57,280 nucleotides of DNA from Escherichia phage KS_W4, in the sequence record PP627281.1. One strand, given 5' to 3'. Below, one piece after another: positions 28,443-53,883 of this stretch (position 1 is its first letter; each line of letters starts with the position of its first letter). Below the pieces are notes generated by a model that did not search any database, was not told where the DNA came from, and saw only the letters and a program-made list of their open reading frames with translations. The position numbers and the translations under genes were made by a program.

Positions 28443-28979
28443 TTACAGGCTATAGTTTACGTGACATTTCGAAGTTTCTTCGATGGTGCATTCTACAAGT
28501 TGAACACCATGTTCGTCAAGCAGTTGCGGCCCAATTACTTCAACCATGTACGCAGCCAGATTTTCAGCAGTAGGATTGAACGGTAAAGACACCAGTGAAT
28601 CGTTAAAAGCTTTAAGATCTTCATCCCCTTCACCGAAAGTAGGCCAACCGCGTTCAGATTGAGTATCCGTTTCAATACAACATTGCAGTCCGTTGATCAA
28701 CATATCCTTTTCCCAATGTAGAAACTTATGATCCCAGTTATCTTCTAGCCACTGGCAGAGCGTAGTTTTAACCACACTAAAGTCAATCACGCGCCCAACG
28801 CTGTCCAGACCGTCCTCAATCAGCTTTCCTCGTGTCACTACTTTTCCGCATCCATGCTTCGGAGCAACCTTAAAGTGAAACTTATAGTTGTGACCGTGGA
28901 GGTGGCGACATTTGCTTTCGTGACCTACAACACGATGTCCGGCGCAAATTTCATGTGAACGAATTACTGTATAGCTCAT
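28443..28979 (-). CDS. queD: 6-carboxy-5,6,7,8-tetrahydropterin synthase
   Basis: 178 aa; CxxxHGH-type signature (CAGHRVVGHESKCRHLHGHNY). Confidence 0.7.
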   Translation of the reverse strand: MSYTVIRSHEICAGHRVVGHESKCRHLHGHNYKFHFKVAPKHGCGKVVTRGKLIEDGLDSVGRVIDFSVVKTTLCQWLEDNWDHKFLHWEKDMLINGLQCCIETDTQSERGWPTFGEGDEDLKAFNDSLVSLPFNPTAENLAAYMVEVIGPQLLDEHGVQLVECTIEETSKCHVNYSL

Positions 28980-29566
28980 TTTAATACCTCTTTAGACTGT
29001 TCAATTTCTAATGCACGCTGTGCGGATGCAATAATATCTTTCAAGTCTTCTACCAGACTTTTATGACCGCGTTCGCCCGGCTGCAACGCCTTTTTAATTA
29101 AATGTTGTAAAGCTGGGTTAGTTGTTTTCCAAGCTTCCAAGACATCATACACGTCCACGATGCATTTTACAACATTGCCGTTTTGATCTTTACCATAAAT
29201 AATTTTCTGATATTTATTCATGGGAATTTTAGATGGTTCATATTTGGTAAAAACTGCACCATTAAATGTATTACTTATGCTTATTCCAGAAGAAGGTTGA
29301 TGGTACACTCCGGAGCGAGTGTTTTCGCTGGCTTGTTTGACGTAATCATCCGCAACGATATATCGCCAGGCTATAATATCTTGAACTTTATAAGGGCTAT
29401 TTTCATCCATAGCTGAACGCCCTTCTATAGCCCAATCCCATCCATGTAATAGATTCTTAACGTGTGTGCCGTTGCGCAAACGAACTTCAAACTTTTCATT
29501 GCGAAGAAAGATTGGCATTCCTTTCCCATCGTGCTGGTGCCAAATTTTATTAAGATTATCTTTCAT
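28976..29566 (-). CDS. hypothetical protein within the 7-deazaguanine cluster
   Basis: about 196 aa from ATG 29566 (track starts at TTG 29605); no motif recognised. Confidence 0.45.
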   Translation of the reverse strand: MKDNLNKIWHQHDGKGMPIFLRNEKFEVRLRNGTHVKNLLHGWDWAIEGRSAMDENSPYKVQDIIAWRYIVADDYVKQASENTRSGVYHQPSSGISISNTFNGAVFTKYEPSKIPMNKYQKIIYGKDQNGNVVKCIVDVYDVLEAWKTTNPALQHLIKKALQPGERGHKSLVEDLKDIIASAQRALEIEQSKEVLK

Positions 29567-29567
29567 T

Positions 29568-30047
29568 TTACGCTCTCGCTGTACGTGATTGAACTTCGTA
29601 AACAATCCAAAGGATAGCGGATGCTGTGAACTTACTTAAGCTCATTGCTACCATTGATCCCGGATTAACAATACCTATAATACTTAAGAACACAATGGAG
29701 TCAATCGGTACAGCTACCAAAGAGCTAATAAATACACGTTGATGAAACGGCTTCTTAGTAATCGTGTATACCGCATAGTCCGCAAACTCGCTAAGAGCAA
29801 AGGATGCAACGGATGCAACTACAACAGCAGGATCCCCAAATACCCAGCTAAGGATGCAACCAACAATCATTGCAGGGATAACGCCTTTACCAGCGTTACG
29901 CTGTGCGTAGTCACGCAACACAAAGATAATACCTACAAAGAAAGCCATCATGGGGACTACGCCAAGAGGCGTGTTAAGCATCGGAAGGTAGGAAAAGCCA
30001 AGGTTTACGAATGTAATTGCAGCCAGATAAGCAACGATAAATTTCAT
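29568..30047 (-). CDS. YhhQ/DUF165-like membrane protein (putative queuosine-precursor transporter)
   Basis: about 159 aa from ATG 30047 (GGAGAA RBS); six hydrophobic segments; pattern resembles YhhQ-family transporters. Confidence 0.45.
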   Translation of the reverse strand: MKFIVAYLAAITFVNLGFSYLPMLNTPLGVVPMMAFFVGIIFVLRDYAQRNAGKGVIPAMIVGCILSWVFGDPAVVVASVASFALSEFADYAVYTITKKPFHQRVFISSLVAVPIDSIVFLSIIGIVNPGSMVAMSLSKFTASAILWIVYEVQSRTARA

Positions 30048-30167: not shown

Positions 30168-30875
30168 TCAAGCTTTGCTAATAAATTCGCTGTACCCTTT
30201 AGCACGCAGTTTGCACGCAGGACATTCACCGCAACCATATCCCCAGTCATGCAGAGTGCGACGGACGCCGTTATAACACGTATGGGACTGCTCAATTACT
30301 GTGGTTAAGAAACCAACCTTATCCGCCAGCTCAAACGTTTCAGCTTTATTTAAACGCATAAGCGGAGTAACAAAATGGATATCTGTTTCATATCCAACGT
30401 TTAATGTAGCTTCAAGCAGGTCTACAAACTGCTGGCGGCAATCCGGATAACCGCTATAGTCTGTTTCACAAACGCCTGTAACCACATATCGGGCTCCAAC
30501 CTTCTGCGCGTAGGCGTGAGCGGTAGTCAGAAAAAGCGCATTACGGTTTGGCACAAAGCTTGCCGGAAGGTTGTTGTGCTGTTCGTGATGTTCGTTAACA
30601 TCACCTTCGTTCCCGATTAAAGCACTATTGCCAATCTGTTTTAAAGCAGGTAATTCAAAGACAACAAATGGGACATCGTGCTCTTTACAAATTTGATTAG
30701 CACAAGCCAGCTCAATGTTATGACGTTGACCGTATGCAAAACCAATAGCGTAGACCTTATCATAGTTATTAAGGGCAAGACCCAAACAGGTCACGCTGTC
30801 CTGGCCGCCAGACAGGACGACAACGGCGGAGTTATGATTTTTTACAGGGAATACCAGTTTATCTAATTTATTCAT
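30168..30875 (-). CDS. queC: 7-cyano-7-deazaguanine synthase
   Basis: about 235 aa from ATG 30875; PP-loop SGGQDS motif; C-terminal Cys cluster (CGECPAC). Confidence 0.8.
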   Translation of the reverse strand: MNKLDKLVFPVKNHNSAVVVLSGGQDSVTCLGLALNNYDKVYAIGFAYGQRHNIELACANQICKEHDVPFVVFELPALKQIGNSALIGNEGDVNEHHEQHNNLPASFVPNRNALFLTTAHAYAQKVGARYVVTGVCETDYSGYPDCRQQFVDLLEATLNVGYETDIHFVTPLMRLNKAETFELADKVGFLTTVIEQSHTCYNGVRRTLHDWGYGCGECPACKLRAKGYSEFISKA

Positions 30876-30876
30876 T

Positions 30877-31065
30877 TTAGAACCCTTTAAGGCTAATATT
30901 AAGATTAACGACCACTTGTTCAACTACATCATCAGATGTCATCTGACGCTTATGAATTTCAAGCTCCGAATGTATGTTCTTGGATGCAGCACGACAGATA
31001 GCGTCATTCAGCTCGTCTTGTAAACGTTGCATCTTCTGCATAAGAATTACAGTTTCTTCATTCAT
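30877..31065 (-). CDS. hypothetical small protein
   Basis: 62-aa ORF; appears paralogous to the next upstream 70-aa ORF. Confidence 0.35.
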   Translation of the reverse strand: MNEETVILMQKMQRLQDELNDAICRAASKNIHSELEIHKRQMTSDDVVEQVVVNLNISLKGF

Positions 31066-31270
31066 CTTCTACACCTTTAATATCACAAGGGTTGATTGTT
31101 ACGTTTGACATCACAATCGGATGATTGCGTGCTCCGATTGTACTAACGTGGTTAATATCTAATTCAACATGCACACCCTGCATAGTAGCGTGAGCAATTG
31201 CAGAATTAAGTTTTTCTACCAGCTCAGTGATCATTTCCTGATGCTGTTTCGCTTCTTCCAAAGTGATCAT
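31058..31270 (-). CDS. hypothetical small protein
   Basis: 70-aa ORF in the que cluster. Confidence 0.35.
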   Translation of the reverse strand: MITLEEAKQHQEMITELVEKLNSAIAHATMQGVHVELDINHVSTIGARNHPIVMSNVTINPCDIKGVEDE

Positions 31271-31525
31271 TTAAACCTCCGTTAATGTTTGAGTCCAGTC
31301 TAAGCCTTCAAGGTCTACATCAGCTATTTCATCGTACTCGTAAGCTCCCGGATCTGCTGGCAGCCATCTATCAAATCGATGGCTGAGTTCTGGAGGAATT
31401 GCTTCATACCCCCAAACCTTCCCATCCTTGTCGGCTGCCAGATAATCAACTCGACTTGGAACGGTTAAAGTGACACCACAAAAATTAACATCTTTAGTAT
31501 GCACAACCTGACTTAATACACGCAT
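31271..31525 (-). CDS. hypothetical protein (VDLEGxDW family)
   Basis: 84 aa; C-terminal ADVDLEGLDWTQTLTEV shared with the ORF at 52069-52374. Confidence 0.45.
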   Translation of the reverse strand: MRVLSQVVHTKDVNFCGVTLTVPSRVDYLAADKDGKVWGYEAIPPELSHRFDRWLPADPGAYEYDEIADVDLEGLDWTQTLTEV

Positions 31526-32232
31526 TATTCCACCCCGATATATTTGTGAACCTGAAGCTGCAACGTGTACCCGTGTTTCATACAGCTTTTGACAACCGCT
31601 TGGATGTTACTGTGGTTAAGATCTTCATCCTGCTCGTCCATTGGCTGTAAATATATCTTACCCTTGAACCCCTTCGGAGGTCTAGCGATAAATGGCGTAG
31701 CTTGATGATCTAATGCCTGAAGCGGTAAACCGTCTTCCACGTTTACACAGCACGCTTTAAGCACATATTTAAATGCGTTTGCTCGGTACAGCACAGTAGG
31801 ATGAATTTTTGAAGTCTTAGGACTGCATACAATGACAGGCAGCTGGGAAAAGTTCTTAGGTAAAGGCATAGACCCATTCGTTTCAATTTGTACAAGATAC
31901 CCGCGCGATAAGAGTTGTTCGACAAACGGGTTAATTTGCTGACGGAACGGTTCACCCCCAGTAATAACCACAAGTGAGGTGCTATTGCCTGATTCCAGCT
32001 TACGGCTTTCGATTAAACGCATGATATCAACAATGTGATAAAGAGAACGACCTACAGTATAGTCAGTATCACAGCCCGGACATTGCAGGTTACACCCAGC
32101 AAGTCGCACAAATACAGCAGGTTGGCCGCAGAATGGCCCTTCACCCTGAATGGTAGAGAATACCGAATGCACGTCTAAATACATATCGTTTTCTTTAGAA
32201 CGAGACTCGGGAGCTTGTTGATTAATATTCAT
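31525..32232 (-). CDS. queE: 7-carboxy-7-deazaguanine synthase (radical SAM)
   Basis: 235 aa; CNLQCPGC (Cx3Cx2C-type) cluster; GGEP motif; RBS AGAGGA. Confidence 0.75.
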   Translation of the reverse strand: MNINQQAPESRSKENDMYLDVHSVFSTIQGEGPFCGQPAVFVRLAGCNLQCPGCDTDYTVGRSLYHIVDIMRLIESRKLESGNSTSLVVITGGEPFRQQINPFVEQLLSRGYLVQIETNGSMPLPKNFSQLPVIVCSPKTSKIHPTVLYRANAFKYVLKACCVNVEDGLPLQALDHQATPFIARPPKGFKGKIYLQPMDEQDEDLNHSNIQAVVKSCMKHGYTLQLQVHKYIGVE

Positions 32233-32246
32233 CTTAAATCCTCTAG

Positions 32247-32276
32247 TGAAAAAGAAAGCGCCTCATTGGGCGCTTT
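32247..32276 (-). terminator. rho-independent terminator
   Basis: AAAGCGCC-CAATGA-GGCGCTTT followed by CTTTTTC on the minus strand. Confidence 0.65.
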
Positions 32277-32301
32277 CATTATAACGTGATATGTTTTGAT
32301 A

Positions 32302-33114
32302 TTACAAGCCGTTCAGGGCTTCCGGTACTGGTACAGGTACGCGACCAGTCACACCATTAAATTTCTTCCAGCGTGCATACTGGGTTTTAACGGTATCTTC
32401 GTTCAGCCCATGGCGACCGGCCAGATTCAGAACATAAGAGATCGGAGCAGGTTGGCCCAGCGTAGCGCTAATCTGGTCCATCAGAGCCCAAGCACGACCG
32501 CAGGAAGTTTCCGGTTGCGGACGGCGAACACCGTTCTGTTCCGGCATACGATTAGCTTCTTTTTCTTTCTCGCGGAGTTCTTTAGCGCGTGCTTTTTCCG
32601 CTTCTTTTTCTGCCTGTTTTGCAGCACGGATCTTGTCTTTGAAGCCTTTAATAGTAGCTTCCAGACCATCCACCAGACCCTGGGCAGAAGTTACAGCACC
32701 GGACAGGTCTTCACCTTTAGACTTCTTAACGACAGCTTTCAGCTCTTTCAGAGCTTCTTTAATGGTCTTCAGGTTTGCAGATCCCTGAGTTTCTGCTTCC
32801 GTGATCTGTTCAACAGTGCTTTCGTCGGTGACGGTAGCCAAAGAGTTTTTCAGGATTTCAGCAGCGTTAGCAATCGCATTAAATTTGTTTTCCGCTTCAG
32901 TGCGGATTTCAGCTTGTTTCTTTTCAGCGGCAGCTTTTTTCTCTGCTTCTTTTTTCTCTTTTGCTACGCGTGCAGCTTCAGCAGCAGCGGCTTTCTTAGC
33001 TTCTGCATCATTCACAGTAGCTTCTTTCTTTGCAGGTTTAGCAGATTTTGCAGCGGCAGCAGCGGCAGCAGCGGCAGCGGCTTTTTTATCTTCAATGTTG
33101 CTCATTCTCTTCAC
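32302..33114 (-). CDS. Ala/Lys/Glu-rich protein with conserved C-terminal domain
   Basis: 270 aa; poly-Ala tract encoded by GCN repeats at 33050-33082; C-terminal about 45 aa shared with the ORF at 48588-49202. Confidence 0.5.
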   Translation of the reverse strand: MKRMSNIEDKKAAAAAAAAAAAKSAKPAKKEATVNDAEAKKAAAAEAARVAKEKKEAEKKAAAEKKQAEIRTEAENKFNAIANAAEILKNSLATVTDESTVEQITEAETQGSANLKTIKEALKELKAVVKKSKGEDLSGAVTSAQGLVDGLEATIKGFKDKIRAAKQAEKEAEKARAKELREKEKEANRMPEQNGVRRPQPETSCGRAWALMDQISATLGQPAPISYVLNLAGRHGLNEDTVKTQYARWKKFNGVTGRVPVPVPEALNGL

Positions 33115-50754: not shown

Positions 50755-51052
50755 ACAACATGATCGGTCTGGTGGATACTACACACATCAACCAAACAAC
50801 GGGGTAAACAAAATGCGTAGTTTCAAATGTGTAAGCGTAAACGATAATGCTAAGGCTAGTGCAAAGGGTCTGTTCACAGTAGGTAATGTGTATGACTTCA
50901 ACATGGAAAGTTATATACACATGACCCTCACGGGCGTAATGTTCGGCGACGTTGGTGCGGTGCGCTGCGAATTAAACAAGTACACGGAAAAGGAATATGC
51001 TCTTATCAGCCGCTACACGGGCGAGCCGTTAGCTGTGTTCCATGCAGCTTAA
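50747..51052 (+). CDS. hypothetical protein
   Basis: 101-aa ORF; alternative ATG at 50813. Confidence 0.35.
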   Translation: MPRQHDRSGGYYTHQPNNGVNKMRSFKCVSVNDNAKASAKGLFTVGNVYDFNMESYIHMTLTGVMFGDVGAVRCELNKYTEKEYALISRYTGEPLAVFHAA

Positions 51053-51485
51053 GCTATAACGCACACAGCGCCACGCTAGCGAGCTAATGCACAAAGGCAA
51101 TGGTAATGCATTAGCTCGGGCGAAACAGGCGCACAGCGTCGCGCACAGCTCACACAGCTCACACAGACCCACGCAGGCCCAGCCGCGCGACCCCACCCAT
51201 CCTTTTCCAGGTACTTGGAGCGCCGGGGCGTGCCCGTCCATCCTGATAGTAAGTGCTTGTCTAAATCTCACCCATCACATAGCCTATCCACCTACATCCA
51301 TGACCCCACCTACCTTCTTTTTGAATATATTGCGCTCATCCTTTCTAAATATATGGATTTTGGTAGTAAATTCTGAGTCGTCAACGTATAATTCGTCTTG
51401 TAGCTGCTCCATAGCTACCATCTTTAAGCGGATGCAACCAATTTCTATCAATTCTTACCAGTTTTACAGCATCAAGGAGGTATTT

Positions 51486-51713
51486 ATGTGCGACTCCAGT
51501 GCAAGCGCTACACCCAGCACCTCCAGCAATGTGGTTACAGAGGTAAATGCAATGCGATTAGGTCCATATCGCGGCTATTATGGTCGTGCTGCATGGAATG
51601 ACGCTACTCAACGTTTTGAAGGCTGGATTATCTGCCCGGAACGTGTTAAATTTCACTCCGTAAAGAGAAAAATATCGTTCTTAATTTTCAAAAATGTGTC
51701 ACTAAATATGTAG
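51486..51713 (+). CDS. hypothetical protein
   Basis: 75 aa from ATG 51486 with strong RBS AAGGAGG; the longer tracked ORF (51087-) runs through a non-coding-looking region and was trimmed. Confidence 0.45.
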   Translation: MCDSSASATPSTSSNVVTEVNAMRLGPYRGYYGRAAWNDATQRFEGWIICPERVKFHSVKRKISFLIFKNVSLNM

Positions 51714-51726
51714 AGGAGCAAGAAGA

Positions 51727-52017
51727 ATGCGTGTAGAAGAGATTGTTGAAGGTAAAGAGTATCGTCTGCTGACTGACATTGGTGGTGTTGGGTATACTCC
51801 GGATGATGCAGCTTGTTTTAACGTCCTTCCGCAAGGTGCTATCGTGACAGTTAACAAGGTCGTTACCGATTTATACAGCGTTCATGACGGCAGATGGCCA
51901 CATGCAGTTATTGTCACCTTCGGTAAAGATGGATATGTGGATCTTGACGGCGAAGATGACGCTTACGAAGTTGCTTATACAGGTCTTGTAAGCCCCAATT
52001 TCCTGGAAGAAGTATAA
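51727..52017 (+). CDS. hypothetical protein
   Basis: 96-aa ORF with GAGGAG RBS; followed by a GGGCTC-TACG-GAGCCC hairpin. Confidence 0.45.
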   Translation: MRVEEIVEGKEYRLLTDIGGVGYTPDDAACFNVLPQGAIVTVNKVVTDLYSVHDGRWPHAVIVTFGKDGYVDLDGEDDAYEVAYTGLVSPNFLEEV

Positions 52018-52068
52018 TTATCAATCTATAATGGGCTCTACGGAGCCCTTAATTATCTGGAGATTGTT

Positions 52069-52374
52069 ATGCTGTATTTAGGAATGGATTTAAATCGAGA
52101 AAAACCGGATATCCCTGCGGTCGATTCTAAAACTGCAATCAAAGTCCTGTTTTTCGATCAGGAAATCCCTGTAGAGCCGGACGCTACTCACATAGCGGTA
52201 GATGCTAATGGTGTTGTTCATTGCTACTGGGCAAAACCTATCAGGTATAAACGCGGTAACGAATGGCTTATGGGTCATGGTAATATACGTGTTCGCTACT
52301 GCGGCGAAGTTGACCTTGAAGGTATGGACTGGCGCGATACGTTGAAGGAGATTACTACATATGTCCACAGCTGA
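52069..52374 (+). CDS. hypothetical protein (VDLEGxDW family)
   Basis: 101 aa; C-terminal GEVDLEGMDWRDTLKEI matches the ORF at 31271-31525. Confidence 0.5.
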   Translation: MLYLGMDLNREKPDIPAVDSKTAIKVLFFDQEIPVEPDATHIAVDANGVVHCYWAKPIRYKRGNEWLMGHGNIRVRYCGEVDLEGMDWRDTLKEITTYVHS

Positions 52375-53490: not shown

Positions 53491-53883
53491 ATGCTATTAG
53501 TCGTCACCGGAGGGCGTAATTTTAAACATGTAGAGTATATTTATGCTCAACTGGATAAGTTGCATACGCAAAGAAGGATAACCACACTTCGCCACGGTGA
53601 CGCTGACGGTGTTGACCGGATTTGCGCACATTGGGCAGAGCGCAACGGTATTAAGACAGAAGCGTTCCCTGCCCCGTGGGACAATCTTTCCTTACCAAAT
53701 ACCAAGATACGGTATAACGCCAAGGGTGCTTATAATGCACAAGCTGGTGCTTACCGCAATCAATTAATGCTGGATACTGATCCTAAACCAGATCACGCTA
53801 TTGTGTTTCCTGGCGGAGCTGGTACTATGGACATGTACAGACGGATTAAAGCATCCGGTATTCCTTACACATTAGCGGAGTAA
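53491..53883 (+). CDS. SLOG/LOG-like Rossmann-fold protein (putative)
   Basis: 130 aa; VVTGGR, GDADGVD and VFPGGAGTMDM motifs resemble the LOG/SLOG superfamily. Confidence 0.35.
   Translation: MLLVVTGGRNFKHVEYIYAQLDKLHTQRRITTLRHGDADGVDRICAHWAERNGIKTEAFPAPWDNLSLPNTKIRYNAKGAYNAQAGAYRNQLMLDTDPKPDHAIVFPGGAGTMDMYRRIKASGIPYTLAE

What the first reader, a model, noticed from the sequence alone, without database searches (positions are those of the whole stretch)
31271..31525. Paralogous small proteins with a conserved C-terminal VDLEG(L/M)DW motif in two different modules
The 84-aa ORF in the que cluster (...YLAADKDGKVWGYEAIP...ADVDLEGLDWTQTLTEV) and the 101-aa early-region ORF at 52069-52374 (...HIAVDANGVVHCYWAKP...GEVDLEGMDWRDTLKEI) align over about 55 residues. 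The two small ORFs at 30877-31065 and 31058-31270 also look like tandem paralogs. Duplicated small proteins split between the modification and early modules suggest a shared regulatory or anti-defence role.
Basis: seen in the sequence. Interest (0 to 1): 0.45.

Follow-up and report, generated by a model that had tools for sequence, protein, structure and literature searches.

The report
Paralogous small accessory proteins in a coliphage
Two small genes in this Seuratvirus-type coliphage are true paralogs from a large, uncharacterised phage protein family, and the copy in the DNA-modification operon occupies a swappable slot that many sister phages leave empty, so it is an ordinary accessory gene and not part of the modification pathway.

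Summary
ORF A (31271-31525, minus strand, 84 aa) and ORF B (52069-52374, plus strand, 101 aa) are homologous: BLASTP gives 37% identity over 57 aa (E 5e-8), and 0 of 5000 shuffles reach that score. Both match phrog_1972 (function unknown), and they are the only two members in the window. VDLEGxDWxxTL is the signature motif of the whole family, which has roughly 1,000 clusters at 50% identity. Members are mostly about 80 aa, acidic and all-beta, with no Pfam or NCBIfam model and no relative in the PDB.

The link to the que genes is positional, not functional. Among 30 sequenced Seuratviruses, the slot between QueE and the next gene holds allele A1 in 11, a 48%-identical allele A2 in 8, unrelated ORFs in 2, and nothing in 9. 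One of the empty-slot phages is CAjan, whose dPreQ0 modification has been measured. The flanking genes are 94-100% identical. ORF B is only about 54-59% identical to the B gene of its closest relatives, while most neighbouring genes are 92-100% identical.

In a third Queuovirinae-like lineage, A-type and B-type genes sit side by side in the small-ORF block. The "split between modules" is therefore best explained by relocation of one copy of a tandem pair.

Function remains unknown. My best guess is a non-enzymatic binder of a host or defence protein. The proposed paralogy of the 62-aa and 70-aa ORFs is weak and covers only a 28-36 residue segment.

The parts
31271..31525 (-). ORF A, 84 aa, A-type member of the phrog_1972 family (allele A1). 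Its ATG overlaps the QueE stop codon by 1 nt (TAATG), and its TAA is followed directly by the ATG of the next gene.
   Evidence: AF2 model with pLDDT 84.6, seven beta-strands.
31295..31318 (-). VDLEGLDW, the family signature motif in ORF A.
52069..52374 (+). ORF B, 101 aa, B-type member of the same family. It has a conserved MLYLGMD N-terminal extension and a GGAG ribosome-binding site 7 nt upstream.
52309..52332 (+). VDLEGMDW, the family signature motif in ORF B.
31525..32232 (-). QueE (radical SAM). This is the conserved left border of the variable slot that holds ORF A.
31058..31270 (-). 70-aa ORF (phrog_26258). This is the conserved right border of the slot. In empty-slot phages its ATG overlaps the QueE stop codon directly.
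30877..31065 (-). 62-aa ORF (phrog_24420), found only in Seuratvirus. It may be a distant tandem paralog of the 70-aa ORF over an N-terminal helical segment.
30168..30875 (-). QueC. The true start is the ATG at 30875, 1 nt after the stop of the 62-aa ORF. It closes the tightly packed QueE-A-70-62-QueC unit.
32254..32307 (-). Promoter-like site (TTGTAA-18-TATAAT, 10/12 matches) and a terminator-like hairpin upstream of QueE. These are consensus matches only.
   Evidence: Similar features are annotated in SA126VB.
53491..53883 (+). YAcAr/SLOG gene. I used it as the synteny marker showing that the ORF B locus corresponds to the locus that carries adjacent A-type and B-type genes in other Queuovirinae-like contigs.

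Best explanation
Shown: ORF A and ORF B are ancient paralogs belonging to one large, uncharacterised family of phage proteins (phrog_1972). Members are about 80 aa, predicted all-beta and mostly acidic. The conserved scaffold is G17, A30, D32, G35, P45, W54 and VDLEGxDWxxTL, and the region between P45 and V70 is variable. Both genes behave as accessory cassettes and not as pathway components. ORF A sits in a precisely bounded slot between QueE and the 70-aa ORF, and that slot is polymorphic among near-identical Seuratviruses (allele A1, allele A2 at 48% identity, unrelated ORFs, or empty). ORF B is a divergent allele, about 54-59% identical to the B gene of the closest relatives, in otherwise mostly 92-100% identical surroundings. 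The A-type clade is found either behind QueE (Seuratvirus, Nonagvirus) or directly upstream of a B-type gene in the small-ORF block of another lineage. Inferred: the pair arose as a tandem duplication in the small-ORF block, and one copy was later captured in the que operon, where it takes over QueE's ribosome-binding site and stop/start overlap and is simply co-expressed. Inferred, about 35-40% likely: the proteins are non-enzymatic binding modules that neutralise or redirect a host protein, most plausibly a component of an anti-phage defence system. On this reading the variable loops set target specificity, and allele swapping and copy-number change reflect an arms race.
Against: No experiment or homology ties any family member to a function, so the binder/anti-defence step rests only on gene behaviour. 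The tight translational coupling with QueE and the conservation of that position across two genera could still mean a modulatory role for QueE that is dispensable under laboratory conditions. Domain fusions found in the family gave no informative partner domains. Sharp allele replacement can also arise from neutral mosaic recombination without selection. The direction of relocation (small-ORF block to que operon, or the reverse) is not resolved by an 80-residue NJ tree. The B-only structure model is poor (pLDDT 54).
Confidence: 0.6

Rival explanations
1. ORF A is a working accessory subunit or regulator of the 7-deazaguanine pathway, for example a QueE partner, and ORF B is a diverged copy with a related role.
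For: ORF A's start codon overlaps the QueE stop codon, and the five genes from QueE to QueC are packed without gaps. An A-type gene follows QueE in both Seuratvirus and Nonagvirus.
Against: The slot is empty in 9 of 30 Seuratviruses, including CAjan, which has measured dPreQ0. It holds unrelated ORFs in SD04 and SA80RD. The family is mostly found in phages without que genes nearby. A and B show no similarity to any Que or Dpd family.
Confidence: 0.06
2. The proteins are acidic DNA mimics or anti-restriction factors that protect unmodified incoming or newly replicated DNA, complementing the dPreQ0 modification.
For: ORF A has pI 4.3 and net charge -9, and the family median pI is 4.6. ORF A lies in the DNA-modification operon. 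It shows accessory-region behaviour.
Against: ORF B is only mildly acidic (pI 5.5), and about 15% of members have pI above 5.5. The predicted compact beta domain resembles no known DNA mimic in the PDB. Phages lacking ORF A remain resistant to type I/II RM in the BASEL assays.
Confidence: 0.1
3. The genes are selfish or neutral mobile cassettes that spread by recombination at conserved gene junctions and give the phage no benefit.
For: The slot shows precise presence/absence at a stop/start junction. In SD04 the cassette is bracketed by the repeat GGTGGAATAATG. Sequence-divergent alleles sit in near-identical backgrounds.
Against: There is no nuclease or recombinase domain. About ten scaffold residues are strongly conserved across roughly 1,000 clusters in very different phage groups, which indicates selection on the protein itself. 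A B-type gene was found in every Seuratvirus record that one search lists.
Confidence: 0.1
4. The proteins are small all-beta DNA-binding regulators (LytTR-like) of phage or host transcription.
Confidence: 0.05

Closest known systems
PHROG family phrog_1972 (function unknown)
   Same: Both ORFs match this profile across the whole domain (E 4.8e-23 and 4.9e-19). Pharokka-style annotation of the Dru_SM1 ortholog also assigns phrog 1972.
   Different: The family is only a catalogue entry. It has no function, no structure, no Pfam or NCBIfam model and no literature that I could find.
Phage accessory-region genes, i.e. counter-defence accessory genes (Silas et al., bioRxiv 10.1101/2023.04.06.535777)
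   Same: The locus has variable content flanked by conserved genes. The genes are small, non-essential in nature, horizontally exchanged and fast-diverging.
   Different: No counter-defence or other phenotype is known for this family. The ORF A slot lies inside a biosynthetic operon and not in a classical early accessory cluster.
Phage 7-deazaguanine DNA-modification cluster (FolE, QueD, QueE, QueC, DpdA, YhhQ; Hutinet et al. 2019, PMC6884629)
   Same: ORF A is physically embedded in this cluster, probably co-transcribed with it and translationally coupled to QueE.
   Different: ORF A is not homologous to any pathway protein. It is absent from CAjan, the experimentally characterised model phage. 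It does not co-occur with que genes outside two genera.
Small acidic phage anti-restriction proteins and DNA mimics (Ocr, ArdA, Arn); resemblance recalled from general knowledge
   Same: ORF A is small and strongly negatively charged, and it is encoded by a virulent phage.
   Different: There is no sequence or fold similarity to solved structures. This is a predicted compact beta domain, not an elongated helical mimic.

Membership tests
phrog_1972 | Significant full-length match to the family profile | tested here: met
   A: E 4.8e-23, residues 2-83. B: E 4.9e-19, residues 22-99.
phrog_1972 / VDLEGxDW family | Conserved scaffold residues (G17, A30, D32, G35, P45, W54, VDLEGxDWxxTL) | tested here: met
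   All are present in both A and B except G17, which is D in B. Column frequencies for these positions are 0.85-1.0 across 118 sequences (116 single-domain representatives plus A and B).
7-deazaguanine modification system component | Homology to a known Que/Dpd protein family | tested here: not met
   No Pfam or NCBIfam match at E <= 1.
7-deazaguanine modification system component | Presence in all phages that carry out the modification, and co-occurrence with que genes | tested here: not met
   The slot is empty in 9 of 30 Seuratviruses, including the dPreQ0-positive CAjan. Of the 20 IMG/VR loci, the only one with clear que genes within +/-6 kb is the Seuratvirus slur01 genome itself (L006); one other locus, L014, gave a single weak QueD-like hit (E 3e-4).
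Phage accessory-region gene | Variable gene content at a locus flanked by conserved genes in related genomes | tested here: met
   The slot has four occupancy states while the flanks are 94-100% identical.
Phage accessory-region gene | Counter-defence or host-modifying activity | not testable with these tools
   This needs genetics or biochemistry. PADLOC holds models of defence systems, not anti-defence proteins, and gave no match.
DUF4314 (a BFVD structural hit carried this name) | Match to the Pfam model | tested here: not met
   No Pfam family matches A or B at E <= 1. In the 187-aa BFVD hit, the region matching our model covers only 75 columns.
LytTR DNA-binding domain | Significant fold similarity | tested here: not met
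Tandem paralogy of the 62-aa and 70-aa ORFs | Statistically significant similarity over most of the length | tested here: inconclusive
   Pairwise E 7e-5 over 26 aa. One of 5000 shuffles reaches the score. hhalign probability 46% over 28 columns. The two are in separate PHROGs. tblastn against the phage collection at E <= 1 reported one place per record, i.e. no cross-hits.

The most novel reading that the evidence does not exclude
The VDLEGxDW domain is a new, very widespread modular inhibitor scaffold in phages, with no solved structural relative. Its hypervariable loops between the conserved P45 and V70 recognise different host immunity or housekeeping proteins. A-type and B-type copies would cover different targets. 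Capture of one copy in the que operon would time its expression with DNA modification, so that protein-based and base-modification-based counter-defence act together.
Probability: 0.2. Interest if true: 0.6.

Novelty: new member of a known kind. Interest (0 to 1): 0.3.

Why it matters
For annotation, it matters in three ways. ORF A should not be counted as part of the 7-deazaguanine pathway. The neighbouring 70-aa ORF is mislabelled 'radical SAM domain-containing protein' in RefSeq and PHROGs. The QueE/70-aa junction is a natural cassette site that could be used to insert payloads into Seuratviruses without disturbing the modification operon. More broadly, the family is large (on the order of 1,000 clusters at 50% identity across siphoviruses, T4-like, rV5-like and jumbo phages). 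It folds confidently in silico and has no solved relative or known function. That makes it a reasonable, but not exceptional, target for accessory-gene and anti-defence screens. Natural isogenic-like sets (Bas23 with A1 versus Bas21, Bas24 and Bas25 without) are already in strain collections.

Tried and rejected
1. Giant top hits of the profile search (P0030 1897 aa, P0032 4529 aa, P0038 1412 aa) looked like huge arrays of the domain. On reading the sequences they are unrelated repetitive surface-protein repeats whose weak per-repeat scores add up. I rejected them.

2. Fusion partners as function clues. I scanned the non-domain parts of genuine multi-domain members (P0034, P0107, P0172, P0171 and others) against Pfam. 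There was no match above any family's curated cut-off.

3. Resemblance of 'DKDGKVWGY' to WG/KWG beta-hairpin repeats, recalled from memory. No Pfam repeat family matched A or B at E <= 1. Dropped.

5. PADLOC and NCBIfam. No matches.

6. Literature searches for the motif, for the PHROG id, and for Queuovirinae accessory or anti-defence genes. Nothing specific turned up. The HIDEN-SEQ essentiality preprint does not cover Queuovirinae.

7. A third hidden paralog in the window. None found.

8. Rfam scan of the window. No RNA family matched.

9. A structure model from B orthologs alone, as independent confirmation of the fold. Confidence was too low (pLDDT 54); only the order of the strands agrees.

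10. dN/dS for the alleles. I did not attempt it because synonymous sites would be saturated at about 50% aa identity.

Full report
**Identity of the window**

The region around the finding is 96-97% identical to Seuratvirus coliphages of the Queuovirinae, such as WildeMaa, PLYYY01, KS_A8 and CSP1. The leftward operon carries DpdA, FolE, QueD, a 209-aa unknown, YhhQ, QueC, two small ORFs, ORF A and QueE. This is the dPreQ0 DNA-modification cluster described for phage CAjan (PMC6884629).

**Check of the observation**

- ORF A (31271-31525, minus strand, 84 aa) and ORF B (52069-52374, plus strand, 101 aa) exist as described.
- BLASTP aligns A residues 28-84 with B residues 41-95 at 37% identity, E 5e-8.
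- A local-alignment shuffle test gives a score of 77 against 25.7 +/- 4.7, with 0 of 5000 shuffles reaching it.
- Both proteins hit the same profile, phrog_1972 (function unknown), over essentially the whole domain (E 4.8e-23 and 4.9e-19).
- A family HMM run over all stop-to-stop ORFs of the window finds only these two, and the strict motif occurs only in them.
- The paralogy is real and the window contains exactly two copies.

**The family**

- Word-indexed searches found only close orthologs. They fall into two groups: an 'MRVLSQ...' A-type and an 'MLYLGMD...' B-type.
- An exhaustive profile search of 1.84 billion representatives gave 1081 hits at E <= 1e-3 and 142 at E <= 1e-10.
- Most hits are single-domain proteins of about 75-90 aa. 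Genuine two- to eight-domain tandem fusions also exist.
- The three giant top hits (P0030, P0032, P0038) are unrelated repeat proteins and were discarded.
- Across 118 family sequences (116 single-domain representatives plus A and B), the conserved positions are G17, A30, D32, G35, P45, W54 and V70-D-L-E-G-x-D-W-x-x-T-L81. The stretch between P45 and V70 is variable in sequence and length.
- Median pI is 4.6 (A 4.3, B 5.5).
- No Pfam, NCBIfam or PADLOC model matches, and no source gives any member a name other than 'hypothetical'.
- AlphaFold2 with the mixed alignment gives a confident model of seven beta-strands (pLDDT 84.6).
- In BFVD it matches dozens of uncharacterised proteins from jumbo (GAP32, CBB), T4-like (CC2, phi-pp2, nt-1, 44RR2.8t, 133), rV5-like and sipho-type phages. 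The best match has TM 0.88.
- A model built from B orthologs alone is of low confidence (pLDDT 54) but shows the same order of strands.

**Is ORF A part of the que pathway?**

The genes are tightly packed:

- The QueE stop codon overlaps the ORF A start (TAATG).
- The ORF A stop is followed directly by the ATG of the 70-aa ORF.
- The 70-aa and 62-aa ORFs overlap by 8 nt.
- QueC starts 1 nt after the 62-aa ORF.

An A-type gene follows QueE in Nonagvirus too. However, locus-by-locus comparison and a junction census cover 33 records, which are 30 distinct Seuratviruses.

| Slot state between QueE and the 70-aa ORF | Phages (of 30) | Examples |
|---|---|---|
| Allele A1 | 11 | this window, WildeMaa, Seurat, slur01 |
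| Allele A2 (99 aa, 48% identical to A1) | 8 | Greed, CSP1, SLUR25, phiG7 |
| Unrelated 88-aa ORF | 1 | SD04 |
| Unrelated 53-aa ORF | 1 | SA80RD |
| Empty | 9 | GottfriedDienst, SeppeHuegi, VogelGryff, KurtStettler, SHIN8, Dru_SM1, SA126VB, Skure, CAjan |

- Across the 13 Seuratvirus loci compared gene by gene, the flanking proteins stay at 97-99% (QueE), 94-100% (70-aa ORF) and 98-100% (QueC) aa identity.
- In the empty state, the QueE stop overlaps the ATG of the 70-aa ORF exactly as it overlaps the ORF A start here.
- CAjan, with an empty slot, has about 32% of its G replaced by dPreQ0 (PMC6884629).
- The BASEL phages that lack ORF A, Bas21 and Bas24, are not among those reported as sensitive to type I/II restriction (PMC8594841).
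- ORF A is therefore dispensable for the modification.

Outside these two genera, members lie in arrays of small unknown ORFs or other accessory contexts. Examples are Carvaje, yong3, and a Salmonella-associated element where the gene sits next to YafQ-like and HNH genes. No clear que genes lie within +/-6 kb of these loci; the only exception is one weak QueD-like hit in L014.

**ORF B**

- A B-type gene is present in every Seuratvirus record that one search lists, but the allele here is unusual.
- It is about 54-59% identical to the B gene of the closest whole-genome relatives (WildeMaa, PLYYY01, Seurat, SeppeHuegi). The best deposited matches are 79% (Dru_SM1) and 68% (STP-SP5).
- Most neighbouring genes are 92-100% identical.
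- Both loci are therefore hot spots of allele replacement.

**Origin of the split**

- Proteins P0005 and P0007 are A-type by sequence: 63-64% identical to A, with the same MRVLSQ N-terminus.
- In roughly 62-kb Queuovirinae-like contigs they lie immediately upstream of a B-type gene (47% identical to B).
- The genes that follow are the same as downstream of ORF B here: an 89-aa ORF, YAcAr/SLOG, further ORFs and the holin.
- In an NJ tree the A clade contains members from both the que locus and the small-ORF locus, while the B clade contains only small-ORF-locus members.
- Tandem copies also occur in yong3 and in several IMG/VR contigs, with up to three adjacent copies.
- The simplest history is a tandem duplication in the small-ORF block followed by relocation of the A-type copy behind QueE. 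The direction is inferred, not shown.

**Likely function**

The evidence points to a non-enzymatic, cytoplasmic binding module:

- The proteins are small, with a conserved structural scaffold and variable loops.
- No catalytic-looking residues are conserved across the family.
- No fusion partner was informative.
- Presence/absence, allele swapping, copy-number change and tandem fusion match the behaviour of phage accessory genes. Many such genes antagonise host defences (bioRxiv 10.1101/2023.04.06.535777).

I therefore favour a host-protein or defence-protein binder, at about 35-40%, and treat the function as unproven. The rivals are a QueE partner, a DNA mimic, a neutral mobile cassette and a LytTR-like regulator. 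They are listed in the rival-explanations section with their evidence.

**The two small ORFs**

- The 62-aa and 70-aa ORFs share a collinear 28-36 residue N-terminal helical segment.
- The statistics are borderline: pairwise E 7e-5, 1 of 5000 shuffles reaching the score, HMM-to-sequence E about 4e-6 for a single comparison, and hhalign probability 46%.
- They belong to different PHROGs.
- The 70-aa ORF has distant relatives outside Seuratvirus, while the 62-aa ORF does not.
- Tandem paralogy is possible but not established.

**Verdict**

The family is catalogued but uncharacterised. This is a new member of a known kind of thing, phage accessory small proteins, and is of modest interest.

Noticed in passing
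window 31058-31270 (-): The 70-aa ORF is annotated 'radical SAM domain-containing protein' in RefSeq records and in PHROG 26258. It has no Pfam match and is too small for that fold. The label looks like a spill-over from the neighbouring QueE.
   Followed up: partly
window 28443-28979 (-) and 28976-29605 (-): QueD is only 72-74% identical to WildeMaa, slur01 and Greed, while QueE, QueC and YhhQ (and DpdA where covered) are 98-100% identical. The adjacent 209-aa unknown varies from 71% to 100%. This is another mosaic patch inside the que cluster.
   Followed up: partly
L031 (Aeromonas phage SD04), slot between QueE and the 70-aa ORF: The slot holds an unannotated, unrelated 88-aa ORF. It is bracketed on both sides by GGTGGAATAATG (the ribosome-binding site plus stop/start junction), which suggests cassette exchange by microhomology at that junction.
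   Followed up: partly
window 53491-53883 (+): A YAcAr/SLOG-family protein (PF10686, E 9e-18) is conserved downstream of ORF B. Related records label it variously as 'GTP-binding domain' or 'DprA'.
   Followed up: partly
window 32302-33114 (-): A 270-aa Ala/Lys/Glu-rich protein with a run of 11 alanines lies just upstream of QueE. It is annotated inconsistently ('FtrA domain', 'plectin 1') and has no Pfam match above threshold.
   Followed up: no
window 51000-51730 (+): There is a GC-rich patch (0.60 against about 0.42 nearby) and an odd 208-aa ORF (51087-51713). The DNA is 95-98% conserved in relatives, where it is annotated as several small hypothetical genes. Some relatives carry an HNH or homing endonuclease in this neighbourhood.
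   Followed up: partly
window 52069-52374 (+), residues H51, C52, C78: B-type proteins have two invariant cysteines, C52 and C78, plus a near-invariant H51, that A-type proteins lack. Family-wide, the two corresponding columns each carry Cys at about 0.2. This may be a contact pair or a clade-specific metal or redox feature.
   Followed up: no
window 52033-52048 (+): A perfect 6-bp GC-rich hairpin (GGGCTC-TACG-GAGCCC) lies between the upstream 96-aa ORF and ORF B, about 20 nt before the ORF B start. It lacks a good T-tract.
   Followed up: no
L005 (Hafnia phage yong3) 3691-4219; L011 4533-5354; L021; L023: Other phage contigs carry two or three adjacent copies of the same family, so tandem amplification recurs in this family.
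   Followed up: partly
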